From the IMG/VR virus record IMGVR_UViG_2537561620_000017, positions 1-25,587 of that record: a stretch of 25,587 bases of DNA. One strand, written 5' to 3'. Source of the DNA: a virus. Taxonomy: Duplodnaviria > Heunggongvirae > Uroviricota > Caudoviricetes. A program made the translations under genes and the position numbers. Each line of letters begins with the position of its first letter. Within the stretch, counting starts at the first letter, position 1. Below the pieces are notes generated by a model, which saw only the letters and a program-made list of their open reading frames with translations, was not told the origin of the DNA and made no database searches. Positions 14,058-14,965 of the stretch are shown here, one piece after another.

Positions 14058-14965
14058 TCAGAATGTCAGTTTGTCACTGGATTTACCGAATTTGTCAGAC
14101 ATGGCTCCCAGGCCAGCCAGGACATCGACCTGTCGCTGTCGCCCACCTCCGGGAGCGGCTGGCTGTTGCCAGAAGTCTTCGAAGTGACGATCGGGTCCAA
14201 AGAACGTCGCAGCCTGCTTCACGAACTGTGTGCCGGTATTTCCTGTGGCACGTACCCAGGCAGCATAGCGTTTCACGCCATCAAGCATGGCTTCAGGTTT
14301 TATTCCCTCCCTGAGCCGGGCTTTCCAGGCTTTGAAGGCTGCGGATTTTGAGTTACCACCAGCACGTTTTGGATATTCCTGCCAGGCCTGTTCAAATTCC
14401 GGTGAATATTCCTGTCGGGAAGAACGCGCTGGTGCAGACGCGTCAGCAGATGCGCCAATAGTGTTTTTACTCTCTGTAGTATTCTCTGAAGTAATCTCTG
14501 TTGTATTCTCTGTAAGATCGAAATTGGTTTTCCCTTCTCCGCGGCGAGGGGTTTCCCGTGTCCGCGGTGAAGGCTTTCCCTCCTCCGCGAAATTGGGTTT
14601 TACAGTTTCCCGAAAACGGGTTTCCCCATTTCGGGAAACTGATTGTTTTCATTGATAATTTCATTAAGGCGCTCACAATCTATACGGTAGAACATTTTGT
14701 GCTCAAGACGCTTGTTGGTTTCAACCAAAATGCCTCTGGACACAAGATGCTTACGCGCTACAGCCTGTTGTTCAAATGTAAGTCCGGTTTCGTGTTGTAT
14801 CTCTTCACGCGTTTTATGTACGCCTTCCGCTGCATGTGCTTTATCCTACCAGTAAAAAATCTGACCAAAGAAAATAACAGCGTGCGGACTTCCCATGTAT
14901 TTAACGAGCCCAGGGTAATAAGCAACCGGATGTCCAAAATCGAGCAGAAGATCAGACGGACGCAT
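14058..14965 (-). pseudogene. lambda O-like replication initiator (replisome organizer) with an in-frame amber codon and a -1 frameshift
   Basis: N-terminal frame MRPSDLLLDFGHPVAYYPGLVKYMGSPHAVIFFGQIFYW-TAG-DKAHAAEGVHKTREEIQHETGLTFEQQAVARKHLVSRGILVETNKRLEHKMFYRIDCERLNEIINENNQFPEMGKPVFGKL stops; the rest continues in the -1 frame (...RETVKPNFAEEGKPSPRTRETPRRGEGKTNFDLTENTTEITSENTTESKNTIGASADASAPARSSRQEYSPEFEQAWQEYPKRAGGNSKSAAFKAWKARLREGIKPEAMLDGVKRYAAWVRATG...KLTF). TAG is at 14846-14848; the frame change is within about 14600-14650. Confidence 0.75.
14470..14640. repeat. ori: iteron-type replication origin inside the O-like gene
   Basis: Three roughly 23-bp direct repeats on the gene strand (CGCGGAGGAGGGAAAGCC / CGCGGACACGGGAAACCC / CGCGGAGAAGGGAAAACC), plus degenerate GGGAAAC copies, next to an AT-rich block with ACAGAGAATAC repeats. 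Same layout as ori-lambda (iterons plus AT-rich region inside O). Confidence 0.7.

What the first reader, a model, noticed from the sequence alone, without database searches (positions are those of the whole stretch)
14470..14640. Iteron array plus AT-rich repeats: a lambda-style origin embedded in the O-like gene
Three 23-bp-spaced direct repeats of the form CGCGGA-nnn-GGGAAA-n-CC, further GGGAAAC copies with dyad symmetry (CCCGAAA...TTTCGGG), and an adjacent AT-rich block of ACAGAGAATAC repeats match the architecture of ori-lambda. The sequence is not the lambda origin.
Basis: partly seen in the sequence, partly recalled or inferred. Interest (0 to 1): 0.45.

Follow-up and report, generated by a model that had tools for sequence, protein, structure and literature searches.

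The report
Relic phage replication origin in initiator pseudogene
The repeats are real and are almost certainly the replication origin of a lambda-like prophage, sitting inside its initiator gene as in phage lambda, but here the initiator gene is dead; its AT-rich 12-bp repeats turn out to be a DNA signal shared by phage initiator genes from E. coli to Bacillus, Staphylococcus and Nostoc.

Summary
Observation confirmed. On the minus (coding) strand, window 14514-14628 holds five contiguous 23-bp units (consensus nnGGGAAAcCCcatTTCGcGaAn) plus a degenerate sixth. Next to them lie four 12-bp repeats (nCAGAGAnTACn, 14466-14513). All sit in the linker of an O-like initiator gene, upstream of DnaC-like and DnaB-like genes.

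Interpretation supported. The position in the gene and the order iterons then AT-rich block match ori-lambda. The 23-bp units start in all three codon phases, so they are not a peptide repeat. The same array recurs in register in Yersinia, Morganella, Serratia, Klebsiella-phage and Burkholderia homologues, and changes with the N-terminal DNA-binding domain. The 12-mer block is the least stable duplex in the gene.

Two caveats apply. The initiator is not a Pfam lambda-O member. In this window it is a pseudogene (TAG at codon 40 and a 1-bp frameshift), and the helicase gene is cut by an IS66-family element, so the origin is a relic that could fire only in trans.

By-product: the CAGAGAnTAC array is conserved at the DNA level. 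Codon third positions are fixed, and GC3 is 0.31 against 0.75 in GC-rich phages. It occurs in homologous initiator genes across Proteobacteria, Firmicutes and Cyanobacteria. I found no description of it.

Verdict: new member of a known kind. No replication assay exists.

The parts
14058..14965 (-). O-like replication initiator gene. Here it is a pseudogene of 908 bp; relatives have an intact 909-bp / 302-aa gene.
   Evidence: It is 99.7% identical to an intact CDS of E. coli O121 (WP_001247839.1) and 96% identical to 'phage replication protein O' of Stx1/Stx2 phages. The intact protein matches PHROG phrog_270 'replication initiation protein' at 1.3e-64 and phrog_9773 'replication initiation O-like' at 1.4e-36.
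14846..14848 (-). Premature stop: codon 40 is TAG where relatives have CAG. Gln40 is invariant in the family.
   Evidence: Window A versus G in three relatives at 14848. The translation shows FYW*DK. Q40 is invariant in alignments A1 and A2. The codon was read directly.
14636..14638 (.). Homopolymer run that has lost one base (AAA here, AAAA in relatives). This is a frameshift at about codon 110, inside the degenerate distal iteron unit.
   Evidence: Alignment to L001, L002 and L003. The reading frame switches here.
14514..14628 (-). Iteron array of five contiguous 23-bp units: U1 14606-14628, U2 14583-14605, U3 14560-14582, U4 14537-14559, U5 14514-14536. Each unit has the half-sites GGGAAAnCC and TTCGCGGA about 11.5 bp apart. 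These are the putative binding sites of the initiator's N-terminal domain.
   Evidence: The units start in codon phases 2, 1, 0, 2, 1. The consensus from 30 units of 6 taxa is nnGGGAAAcCCcatTTCGcGaAn. Cross-species conservation has no period-3 signal and peaks at 11.5 bp.
14629..14651 (-). Degenerate sixth (distal) unit, TGAAAACAATCAGTTTCCCGAAA. With U1 it forms the dyad 14603-14641.
   Evidence: (I1).
14466..14513 (-). Four tandem 12-bp repeats: ACAGAGAATACA, ACAGAGATTACT, TCAGAGAATACT, ACAGAGAGTAAA. This is the putative DNA unwinding / helicase-loading element. It encodes TENTTEITSENTTESK.
   Evidence: It contains the least stable 36-bp window of the gene. The block is conserved at the DNA level in homologous initiator genes of many phyla.
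14516..14519 (.). GATC (Dam site) at the junction between iterons and 12-mers.
   Evidence: Read from the sequence. The same TTCGATC(C/T)T junction is present in the Yersinia, Morganella, Serratia, Proteus and Klebsiella-phage homologues. Function not tested.
14652..14965 (-). Coding region of the N-terminal DNA-binding domain, aa 1 to ~105, probably a winged helix.
   Evidence: Conserved in Enterobacterales and Burkholderiaceae homologues. hhalign to the N-domains of the mEp460, TRS1, CF63a, Vibrio-phage and Staphylococcus phage 37 initiators gives 98.5% probability, E 3.8e-15. The AF2 model is of low confidence and shows a helix-helix-hairpin topology. The Foldseek top hits are all winged-helix proteins, but none is significant.
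14058..14465 (-). Coding region of the exchangeable C-terminal domain, the presumed contact with the helicase loader and helicase.
   Evidence: This half alone is shared (about 95% nt identity) with phiP27 gene L17. That gene has a different N-domain and different iterons but the same downstream DnaC-like and DnaB-like genes. Homologues of the N-domain carry at least 4 different C-domains.
13169..14056 (-). DnaC/IstB-like AAA+ helicase-loader gene.
   Evidence: Pfam IstB_IS21 1.6e-15 and Bac_DnaA 5.9e-7. Annotated 'ATP-binding protein' or 'DnaC-like helicase loader' in relatives.
11898..13172 (-). DnaB-like replicative helicase gene, truncated at its 3' end (424 aa versus 463 aa).
   Evidence: Pfam DnaB_C 4.2e-71. 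Homology to the intact module stops at window 11927, so about 49 codons are missing.
9255..11894 (+). IS66-family element (tnpA, tnpB, tnpC) that cuts off the end of the helicase gene.
   Evidence: Pfam HTH_Tnp_1, TnpB_IS66 and DDE_Tnp_IS66. ISSfl3-type hits.

Best explanation
Window 14466-14651 is the cis-acting replication origin of a lambdoid prophage replication module. It is embedded in the linker-coding part of the module's own initiator gene.

Inferred mechanism, by analogy with ori-lambda:
1. The initiator's N-terminal winged-helix domain binds the five 23-bp iterons. Each iteron has two half-sites about one helical turn apart, and the proteins build a nucleoprotein complex.
2. That complex strains the adjacent array of four 12-bp CAGAGAnTAC repeats, the least stable duplex in the gene, and opens it.
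3. The initiator's C-terminal domain then brings in the phage's own DnaC-like loader and DnaB-like helicase, whose genes lie immediately downstream.

The unit 'N-domain + iterons + 12-mers' is inherited together and sets origin specificity. The C-domain travels with the loader and helicase genes.

In this window the origin DNA is intact: it is identical to that of inducible Stx phages except for one lost base in the degenerate distal unit. The initiator, however, is inactivated twice and the helicase gene is truncated by an IS element. The origin is therefore a fossil that could fire only if a co-resident or infecting phage of the same specificity supplied the proteins.

Shown here: the existence of the repeats, their register, their conservation and their co-variation; DNA-level selection on the 12-mers; the duplex-stability minimum; and the pseudogene state.

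Inferred, not shown: protein binding, unwinding, helicase loading, and replication itself.
For: 1. Repeats far beyond chance. The two best tandem arrays of the window lie side by side.

2. Position and order match ori-lambda. Iterons are at codons ~113-151 of 302, then the AT-rich block; lambda's iterons are at codons 117-145 of 299. PMC7466680 describes ori-lambda as iterons plus an AT-rich tract in the middle of O.

3. The host gene is a phage replication initiator by PHROG (phrog_270, 1.3e-64). It is followed by DnaC-like and DnaB-like genes.

4. The repeat is in the DNA, not the peptide. 23 is not a multiple of 3, the units start in phases 2, 1, 0, 2, 1, and cross-species conservation shows no period-3 power.

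5. Homologues found through the N-domain only all carry 23-bp units in the same register, ending at the 12-mers. This holds for Yersinia, Morganella, Serratia, Proteus, Trinickia and Burkholderia. The core is retained in Enterobacterales and altered in Burkholderiaceae (TGCGGAAAGCGC...TTTCGG).

6. Initiators with other N-domain subfamilies have quite different iterons at the same place: mEp460 (TCCATCGGGTCAAAATG), Bacillus phage PM1, Acinetobacter phage TRS1, Pseudomonas phage CF63a and phiP27.

7. Mosaic boundaries fit the model. phiP27 shares only the C-domain half, with the junction right after the 12-mers. mEp460-type phages share only the 12-mer block.

8. The 12-mer block is the least stable 36-bp window in the gene, here and in 5 of 5 homologues tested. 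In GC-rich hosts it lies about 3.3-3.7 SD from the gene mean.

9. DNA-level selection on the 12-mers.
- In an N-domain-ascertained sample, 68 of 71 distinct ORFs have at least 2 copies.
- Codon third positions 3, 6 and 9 are nearly invariant, while a first and a second codon position vary.
- GC3 is 0.31 in the block against 0.75 elsewhere in the ORFs (p = 8e-42).
- Thr codons in Burkholderia and Trinickia are all ACA/ACT in the block, against ACC/ACG elsewhere.
- Copies persist out of frame in TRS1-like phages and in L223.

10. Natural variants P0009 and P0012 lack the distal units but keep the three proximal units and the 12-mers. This is consistent with the lambda finding that the AT-proximal iterons suffice, as quoted in PMC7466680.
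Against: - No experiment exists. I found no paper that maps an origin for this module. The Eru-type papers that include these Stx phages do not mention an origin or iterons.
- The initiator has no Pfam or NCBIfam hit and no significant similarity to lambda O. The analogy is architectural, not homology-based.
- The structure model is poor (pLDDT 46), so the winged-helix assignment rests mainly on profile comparison.
- Close E. coli relatives are too similar and too mosaic in this region to give an independent conservation test.
- In this window the initiator is a pseudogene and the helicase gene is truncated, so nothing can be claimed about present activity.
- The 12-mers sit exactly at a module boundary. 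Part of their conservation could reflect a role as a recombination linker.
Confidence: 0.85

Rival explanations
1. The repeats have no cis-acting role. They are a by-product of coding for a low-complexity, disordered linker (…PRTRETPRRGEGK…TENTTEITSENTTE…) that arose by replication slippage.
For: The region encodes a linker that is predicted disordered (pLDDT 24-32 for residues ~107-184). The 12-mers are read in the same TE(I/N)TT frame in nearly all homologues.
Against: - The 23-bp units fall in all three codon phases and do not give a repeated peptide.
- Conservation across genera has no period-3 component.
- In the 12-mers, third codon positions are fixed while amino-acid-changing positions vary. 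GC3 is 0.31 against 0.75.
- Out-of-frame copies are kept (YREY in TRS1; L223).
- An orphan copy persists on pBSG3-type plasmids without an initiator ORF.
Confidence: 0.04
2. The 23-bp repeats are binding sites for the initiator or another regulator, but they serve autoregulation, transcription attenuation or exclusion of related phages, not origin function. The true origin lies elsewhere in the prophage.
For: Iterons of plasmids and of lambda also act in control and exclusion. PMC3349717, on a lambda ori-dependent inhibition phenotype, turned up in the search. Nothing here demonstrates initiation at this site.
Against: - The sites lie in mid-gene, not at a promoter.
- They are always joined to the least stable duplex of the gene and to a helicase-loader and helicase operon.
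- No competing repeat cluster exists in the 4.1-kb module or anywhere in the window.
- The arrangement is the one shown experimentally to be the origin in lambda.
Confidence: 0.06
3. The 12-bp CAGAGAnTAC block is mainly a conserved 'linker' for homologous recombination between phage modules: a domain-swap hotspot between N- and C-terminal halves of initiator genes. It is not an unwinding element.
For: - The block lies exactly at mosaic junctions. phiP27 shares sequence only to one side of it, and mEp460, HannyBb and AH07 share only the block itself at 93-97% identity.
- N-domains of one family are joined to at least 4 different C-domains just after it.
- Draft assemblies break there.
Against: - A recombination linker would not need to be the duplex-stability minimum.
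- It would not need a fixed 12-bp period with 2-4 copies, nor a fixed orientation next to the iterons.
- Conservation between hosts that rarely exchange phages (Bacillus, Staphylococcus, Nostoc, Pseudomonas, E. coli) argues for a mechanistic constraint.
- The two roles are not exclusive.
Confidence: 0.15

Closest known systems
ori-lambda, inside gene O of phage lambda and the lambda-type Stx phages 933W / P27
   Same: - The origin lies in the middle of the initiator gene, in the linker between the DNA-binding N-domain and the C-domain that recruits the helicase.
- There is an array of initiator-binding repeats with internal dyad character.
- An AT-rich unwinding region follows immediately on the promoter-distal side.
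- The number of repeats varies between phages: 4 in lambda, 6 in 933W.
   Different: - No sequence similarity in iterons or protein, and no Pfam Phage_rep_O hit.
- Five contiguous 23-bp units, against four 18-bp sites spaced 20-24 bp apart.
- The unwinding region is a 12-bp repeat array (CAGAGAnTAC), not lambda's A-tracts. Lambda has at most one degenerate copy, TCAGAGAATTCT.
- The partners are a DnaC-like loader plus the phage's own DnaB-like helicase, not lambda P hijacking host DnaB.
Replication module of phage phiP27 (NC_003356 genes L17-L19) and the 'Eru7' replication region of Stx phages (PMC8951638)
   Same: - Same gene order: initiator, DnaC-like loader, DnaB-like helicase.
- Same initiator C-domain as phiP27 (about 95% nt identity).
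- The Eru7 representative LC567818 and about 20 other Stx1/Stx2 phages carry this very initiator and a 99% identical origin region.
   Different: - phiP27's initiator has an HTH_36 N-domain, TCAGAATCTGA-type repeats and no CAGAGAnTAC block.
- The Eru papers classify by the two genes next to cI and describe no origin.
- The window copy is a decayed fragment without cI.
Winged-helix 'O-like / DnaD-like / replisome organizer' initiators of temperate phages (PHROG 270, 391, 428, 6493, 9773), e.g. mEp460, Acinetobacter TRS1, Pseudomonas CF63a, Bacillus PM1 and BtCS33, Staphylococcus phage 37
   Same: - Homologous N-domain (hhalign 98.5%, E 3.8e-15).
- Same layout: N-domain, then phage-specific iterons, then 2-4 CAGAGAnTAC 12-mers, then a variable C-domain.
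   Different: Each group has its own iteron sequence and C-domain. To my knowledge, none of these origins has been mapped experimentally in the literature I could search.
Iteron-type plasmid origins (RK2 oriV/TrfA, pPS10, F, R6K) with sequence-specific repeats in the DUE
   Same: - Direct repeats of about 22 bp, roughly two helical turns apart, bound by a winged-helix initiator.
- They sit next to an AT-rich region that itself contains short repeats (13-mers) recognised as single strands by the Rep protein (abstracts of PMC4081077 and PMC10602881, seen).
   Different: - No DnaA box near this origin and no Rep_3-type Pfam hit.
- This origin lies inside the initiator's coding sequence.
- The DUE repeat is 12 bp, with a different sequence.

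Membership tests
lambda-type phage origin (architecture of ori-lambda) | Origin lies within the initiator gene, between the regions coding for the DNA-binding and the C-terminal domains | tested here: met
   The repeats occupy codons ~113-167 of a 302-codon PHROG 'replication initiation' gene. They lie between a conserved N-domain (aa 1-105) and an exchangeable C-domain. Lambda iterons are at codons 117-145 of 299.
lambda-type phage origin (architecture of ori-lambda) | Array of four or more repeated initiator-binding sites (iterons) | tested here: met
   Five 23-bp units in unbroken register plus a degenerate sixth. The pattern count is 4 against 0.16 expected. Binding by the protein itself cannot be tested here.
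lambda-type phage origin (architecture of ori-lambda) | AT-rich, easily melted region directly after the iterons in the direction of transcription | tested here: met
   G+C is 32.5% at 14460-14519. The least stable 36-bp window of the gene starts at 14464. The same holds in 5 of 5 homologues.
lambda-type phage origin (architecture of ori-lambda) | Initiator-dependent replication of a cloned fragment; unwinding at the AT-rich region | not testable with these tools
   Needs a wet-lab assay. No published assay for this module was found.
lambda O protein family (Pfam PF04492 Phage_rep_O) | Significant match of the initiator to the Phage_rep_O profile or to lambda O | tested here: not met
   No Pfam hit for the window fragments or for the intact relative at E up to 1. 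No NCBIfam hit. hhalign of the family alignment against lambda O gives probability 0.1%, E 0.45.
Winged-helix O-like/DnaD-like phage initiator superfamily with CAGAGAnTAC cassette (defined here) | N-terminal domain homologous to that of the mEp460, TRS1, CF63a and phage 37 initiators | tested here: met
   hhalign A1 against A3: 98.5% probability, E 3.8e-15 over 93 columns. PHROG hits phrog_9773, 6493 and 678.
Winged-helix O-like/DnaD-like phage initiator superfamily with CAGAGAnTAC cassette (defined here) | 2-4 tandem 12-bp CAGAGAnTAC repeats immediately downstream of the iterons, on the coding strand | tested here: met
   Four copies at 14466-14513. The same is found in 68 of 71 N-domain-ascertained ORFs.
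Iteron plasmid replicons (Rep_3 / RepA-type oriV) | Rep_3-type initiator and DnaA box(es) next to the iterons | tested here: not met
   No Rep_3 hit. No TTATNCACA (1 mismatch or fewer) between 14000 and 15200; the nearest is at 13479.
Eru7 replication region of Stx phages (Fagerlund et al. 2022, PMC8951638) | Identity of the two genes directly next to cI (the definition used by the authors) | tested here: inconclusive
   The Eru7 representative LC567818 carries this initiator gene (95.5% identity over 89% of the query; origin region 99%). The window fragment ends at 16026 inside the Rha/Ash gene and has no cI, so the defining genes cannot be compared.

The most novel reading that the evidence does not exclude
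The four 12-bp repeats are not just 'AT-rich DNA'. They are one copy of a sequence-specific origin element, a tandem nCAGAGAnTACn array of 2-4 copies with a 12-bp period, always just downstream of the iterons on the coding strand. This element has been kept at the DNA level in one large superfamily of winged-helix phage and plasmid initiator genes across Gammaproteobacteria, Betaproteobacteria, Firmicutes and Cyanobacteria.

Such conservation, independent of the phage-specific iterons and of the C-terminal recruitment domain, would mean that the element is read by something common to all these systems. Candidates are the conserved initiator N-domain acting on single-stranded DNA, or the DnaB-type helicase-loading step. 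That would make it a phage counterpart of DnaA-trios in oriC or of the Rep-bound 13-mers of RK2. I found no description of it in the searchable literature.
Probability: 0.4. Interest if true: 0.7.

Novelty: new member of a known kind. Interest (0 to 1): 0.45.

Why it matters
**For this window.** It turns an anonymous repeat cluster into an annotated feature: the origin of a defunct prophage replication module. It also records that the module's initiator and helicase genes are dead.

**For Stx phages.** The same origin, 99% identical, sits in about 20 sequenced Stx1/Stx2-converting phages of the 'Eru7' type. Their replication genes have been catalogued, but I found no origin described for them. 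Replication controls toxin gene dosage after induction, so knowing the cis site and its specificity cassette makes replication, incompatibility and origin-decoy experiments possible.

**More generally.** The comparison exposes a 12-bp repeat array that is conserved as DNA in initiator genes of phages from very different bacteria. If it is a sequence-specific unwinding or helicase-loading signal, it gives two things. One is a simple rule for predicting origins in thousands of temperate phages. The other is a handle on how winged-helix initiators open DNA.

Tried and rejected
- **Pfam and NCBIfam** on the broken fragments and on the intact relative: no family for the initiator.
- **Sequence search of the PDB** with the family profile: no hit at E up to 1.
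- **AlphaFold2** on a 23-sequence alignment: poor model (pLDDT 46; only the C-domain reaches ~80). Foldseek against the PDB gave no significant match (best E 0.35). The top hits are all winged-helix proteins, so I use this only as a weak pointer.
- **hhalign to lambda O**: not significant, so homology to lambda O is not claimed.
- **Rfam** on 13900-15300, both strands: nothing relevant. An RNA element is not supported.
- **DnaA boxes**: none near the repeats. A DnaA-dependent plasmid-type origin is not supported.
- **Close E. coli relatives** as evidence of constraint: rejected. The N-domain plus origin part is nearly invariant among them while the C-domain part varies, which is mosaicism, not a clean test.
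- **Literature searches** by motif strings (ACAGAGATTAC, TEITTE and others) and by topic: nothing describes this origin or the 12-mers. Weigel & Seitz 2006, the review most likely to mention it, is not held.
- **The search for related loci with a 7-sequence alignment**: failed because no stretch was conserved enough. It was repeated with 3 sequences.
- **The 13+11-bp spaced copies** in 57 viral contigs: mostly one TRS1-like lineage, so they count as one or two events, not 57.
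Full report
**1. What is in the sequence**

The window was read at 14000-15200. All features below lie on the minus strand, which is the coding strand here.

- *23-bp repeats.* The repeat finder and Tandem Repeats Finder both report a 23-bp direct repeat at about 14526-14594.
- *12-bp repeats.* Both tools also report a 12-bp direct repeat at about 14468-14514. These two arrays are the best-scoring tandem arrays in the whole 25.6-kb window.
All four copies lie in 14526-14635. Only 0.16 are expected by chance, and no shuffle reaches four.
- *Dyad.* The dyad CCCGAAA…TTTCGGG is inverted repeat I1, at 14603-14620 / 14624-14641.
- *True extent of the array.* Counting back in steps of 23 bp from the first 12-mer gives five unbroken units: U1 14606-14628 to U5 14514-14536. 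A degenerate sixth unit occupies 14629-14651. Four 12-mers follow at 14466-14513.

**2. The gene around it, and its state in this window**

The repeats lie inside a minus-strand gene. In close relatives this gene is an intact 909-bp CDS.
- In E. coli O121 it is WP_001247839.1, 99.7% identical.
- In about 20 Stx1/Stx2-converting phages it is annotated 'phage replication protein O', 96% identical.
- The intact protein matches PHROG phrog_270 'replication initiation protein' (1.3e-64). Its N-terminal 200 residues match phrog_9773 'replication initiation O-like'.
- It has no Pfam or NCBIfam hit.

Immediately downstream are a DnaC/IstB-like AAA+ gene (13169-14056) and a DnaB-like helicase gene (11898-13172).

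In the window the initiator gene is broken twice.
- Codon 40 is TAG instead of CAG (14846-14848). Gln40 is invariant in the family.
- One base is missing from an A-run at 14636-14638, which shifts the frame at about codon 110.

The helicase gene has lost its last ~49 codons to an IS66-family element. Homology to the intact module stops at 11927.

The rest of the window is a patchwork of IS3- and IS66-family elements and prophage fragments. The module is a fossil. Its origin DNA is otherwise identical to that of the intact phages.

**3. Are the repeats DNA signals or just coding?**

Three lines of evidence point to DNA signals for the iterons.
- 23 is not a multiple of three. The five units start in codon phases 2, 1, 0, 2, 1 and encode unrelated peptides.
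- I fetched homologues by their N-terminal domain only, from Yersinia, Morganella, Serratia, Proteus, Trinickia and Burkholderia. Each carries 23-bp units in the same register, ending exactly at the 12-mers.
- Pooling 30 units from six taxa gives the consensus nnGGGAAAcCCcatTTCGcGaAn, with two conserved half-sites about 11.5 bp apart. The cross-species conservation profile has essentially no period-3 power (0.002) and peaks at 11.5 bp.

The 12-mers show the same kind of evidence.
- In an N-domain-ascertained sample from IMG/VR, 68 of 71 distinct initiator ORFs (locus G+C 44-68%) have at least two copies just after their iterons.
- The position matrix gives nCAGAGAnTACn. Third codon positions 3, 6 and 9 are nearly invariant, while a first and a second codon position vary. 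This is the reverse of what selection on the peptide would give.
- In GC-rich loci, GC3 is 0.31 in the block against 0.75 in the rest of the ORFs (p = 8e-42).
- In Burkholderia and Trinickia, all Thr codons in the block are ACA/ACT, against ACC/ACG elsewhere.
- Copies persist out of frame in Acinetobacter TRS1-like phages (spacing 13 + 11) and in L223.

**4. Evidence that it is an origin**

- *Layout.* Lambda's annotated iterons lie at codons 117-145 of the 299-codon O gene and are followed by the AT-rich tract. PMC7466680 describes this as the lambdoid origin. Here the iterons occupy codons ~113-151 of 302, and the 12-mers follow in the same orientation.
- *Duplex stability.* The 12-mer block contains the least stable 36-bp duplex of the gene: start 14464, -40.4 kcal/mol against a window mean of -49.6 ± 3.4, the 99.55th percentile. 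The same is true in five of five homologues tested, including GC-rich ones.
- *Iterons follow the DNA-binding domain.* Members of the window's N-domain family share the GGGAAA…TTCGCG core, which is modified in Burkholderiaceae. Initiators with other N-domains have unrelated repeats at the same place. This holds for mEp460, HannyBb, Pantoea phage AH07, PM1, BtCS33, TRS1, CF63a, Staphylococcus phage 37 and phiP27.
- *Mosaic boundaries.* phiP27 shares only the C-domain half, together with the same DnaC-like and DnaB-like genes, and the junction falls right after the 12-mers. N-domain homologues carry at least four different C-domains. This is what is expected if 'N-domain + iterons + DUE' is the specificity cassette and the C-domain contacts the loader and helicase.
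- *Natural variants.* P0009 and P0012 have lost the distal units but keep the three proximal units and the 12-mers.

**5. Mechanism proposed**

The following steps are inferred by analogy with lambda.
1. The N-domain binds the iterons. It is probably a winged helix. Profile comparison to related initiators gives 98.5% probability, but the structural evidence is weak.
2. The resulting complex opens the 12-mer array.
3. The C-domain recruits the phage's DnaC-like loader and DnaB-like helicase.

None of these steps has been tested. No DnaA box lies nearby, and no Rfam family matches the region.

**6. Comparison with what is known**

The element works like ori-lambda. It is not a member of the lambda O/ori family by sequence: Pfam Phage_rep_O is not met, and hhalign to lambda O is not significant.

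The module belongs to the group of Stx-phage replication regions catalogued as 'Eru7', whose representative LC567818 carries this gene. Those papers contain no mention of an origin or of iterons. It also resembles iteron plasmids in unit length, and in having repeats inside the unwinding region (abstract of PMC4081077).

**7. The by-product**

The 12-mer block turned up at 84-97% nucleotide identity inside initiator genes from a wide range of hosts.
- Phages of Klebsiella, Pantoea, Erwinia, Providencia, Vibrio, Acinetobacter, Pseudomonas, Burkholderia, Bacillus and Staphylococcus.
- A Nostoc plasmid ORF that precedes dnaB.
- An orphan fragment on pBSG3-type Bacillus plasmids, with PM1-like iterons and no initiator ORF.

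The N-domains of these proteins are homologous. Lambda itself has only one degenerate copy, TCAGAGAATTCT, 45 bp past iteron 4, and that could be chance. String and topic searches of the held literature found no description of this element. The key review is not held, so I cannot exclude that specialists know it.

**8. Verdict**

- The copy in this window is a relic in a pseudogene.
- Novelty: a new member of a known kind.
- Interest is moderate (0.45). It rises if the 12-mer array proves to be an undescribed, sequence-specific origin element.

Noticed in passing
window 14466-14513; loci L005-L007, L015-L022, L023-L142, L204-L283, L285: The 12-bp repeat nCAGAGAnTACn (2-4 tandem copies) is conserved as DNA just downstream of phage-specific iterons. 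It occurs in homologous winged-helix initiator genes of phages and plasmids from Gamma- and Betaproteobacteria, Firmicutes and Cyanobacteria. Third codon positions are fixed, and GC3 is 0.31 against 0.75 in GC-rich hosts. No description was found in the searchable literature.
   Followed up: partly
window 14846-14848 and 14636-14638: The O-like initiator gene is a pseudogene in this window. It has a CAG to TAG nonsense mutation at invariant Gln40 and a 1-bp deletion in an A-run that shifts the frame at about codon 110. The closest relative (E. coli O121, 99.7% identical) has neither change.
   Followed up: yes
window 9255-11927: An IS66-family element (tnpA, tnpB, tnpC) abuts the DnaB-like helicase gene and removes its last ~49 codons. 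Homology to the intact replication module runs only from 11927 to 16026.
   Followed up: yes
window 1-9200 and 16000-25587: The rest of the window is a patchwork. It holds a lambda-type integrase (135-1205), antirepressor genes, two IS3-family elements (~3945-6780), a terminase large-subunit fragment (6811-7602), a Gp49-like/HTH_3 pair resembling a toxin-antitoxin (15719-16690), NinB (16905-17315), a Toprim-like protein (18681-19958), another IS3-family element (20052-21265) and an AAA_24 protein (23414-24322). The IS types (IS600, IS911, ISSfl3) suggest a Shigella-like genome, but the source was not identified.
   Followed up: partly
window 14516-14519: A GATC (Dam) site sits exactly at the junction between the last iteron and the first 12-mer (TTCGATCTT). 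It is conserved in the Yersinia, Morganella, Serratia, Proteus and Klebsiella-phage homologues and absent in the Burkholderiaceae ones. This hints at methylation or SeqA control of firing.
   Followed up: no
L284 (plasmid pBSG3, NC_014104) ~735-842: Small 8.4-kb Bacillus plasmids carry an orphan origin cassette: three CCTACAGGGAAAGA iterons like those of phage PM1, plus three CAGAGATTAC 12-mers. There is no intact initiator ORF around it (longest open frame 88 aa), and it lies upstream of the plasmid's own rep gene. It may be a way to be amplified by a phage, or simply a gene fragment.
   Followed up: no
L203 (lambda) locus 664-675 = lambda 39163-39174: Lambda has a single 12-mer-like sequence, TCAGAGAATTCT (2 mismatches to ACAGAGAATACT), 45 bp after iteron 4, at the right edge of the AT-rich region. 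One hit in 1.9 kb may be chance.
   Followed up: no
proteins P0029, P0014, P0005, P0004; P0009, P0012: Many 'partial' database proteins of this family end inside the iteron/12-mer region, which indicates that draft assemblies break at these repeats. Two full-length variants lack 20 or 30 residues covering the distal iterons but keep the three proximal units and the 12-mers.
   Followed up: partly
L004 (phiP27) gene L17, sense nt ~340-530: phiP27's initiator has an HTH_36 N-domain, its own repeats (CCGTCAGATTCTGAACC-type) and a different repeated AT-rich stretch (AAAACATGATCCGCAAG x2) instead of the CAGAGAnTAC block. This is a second, unstudied origin type joined to the same C-domain, DnaC-like and DnaB-like genes.
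   Followed up: no
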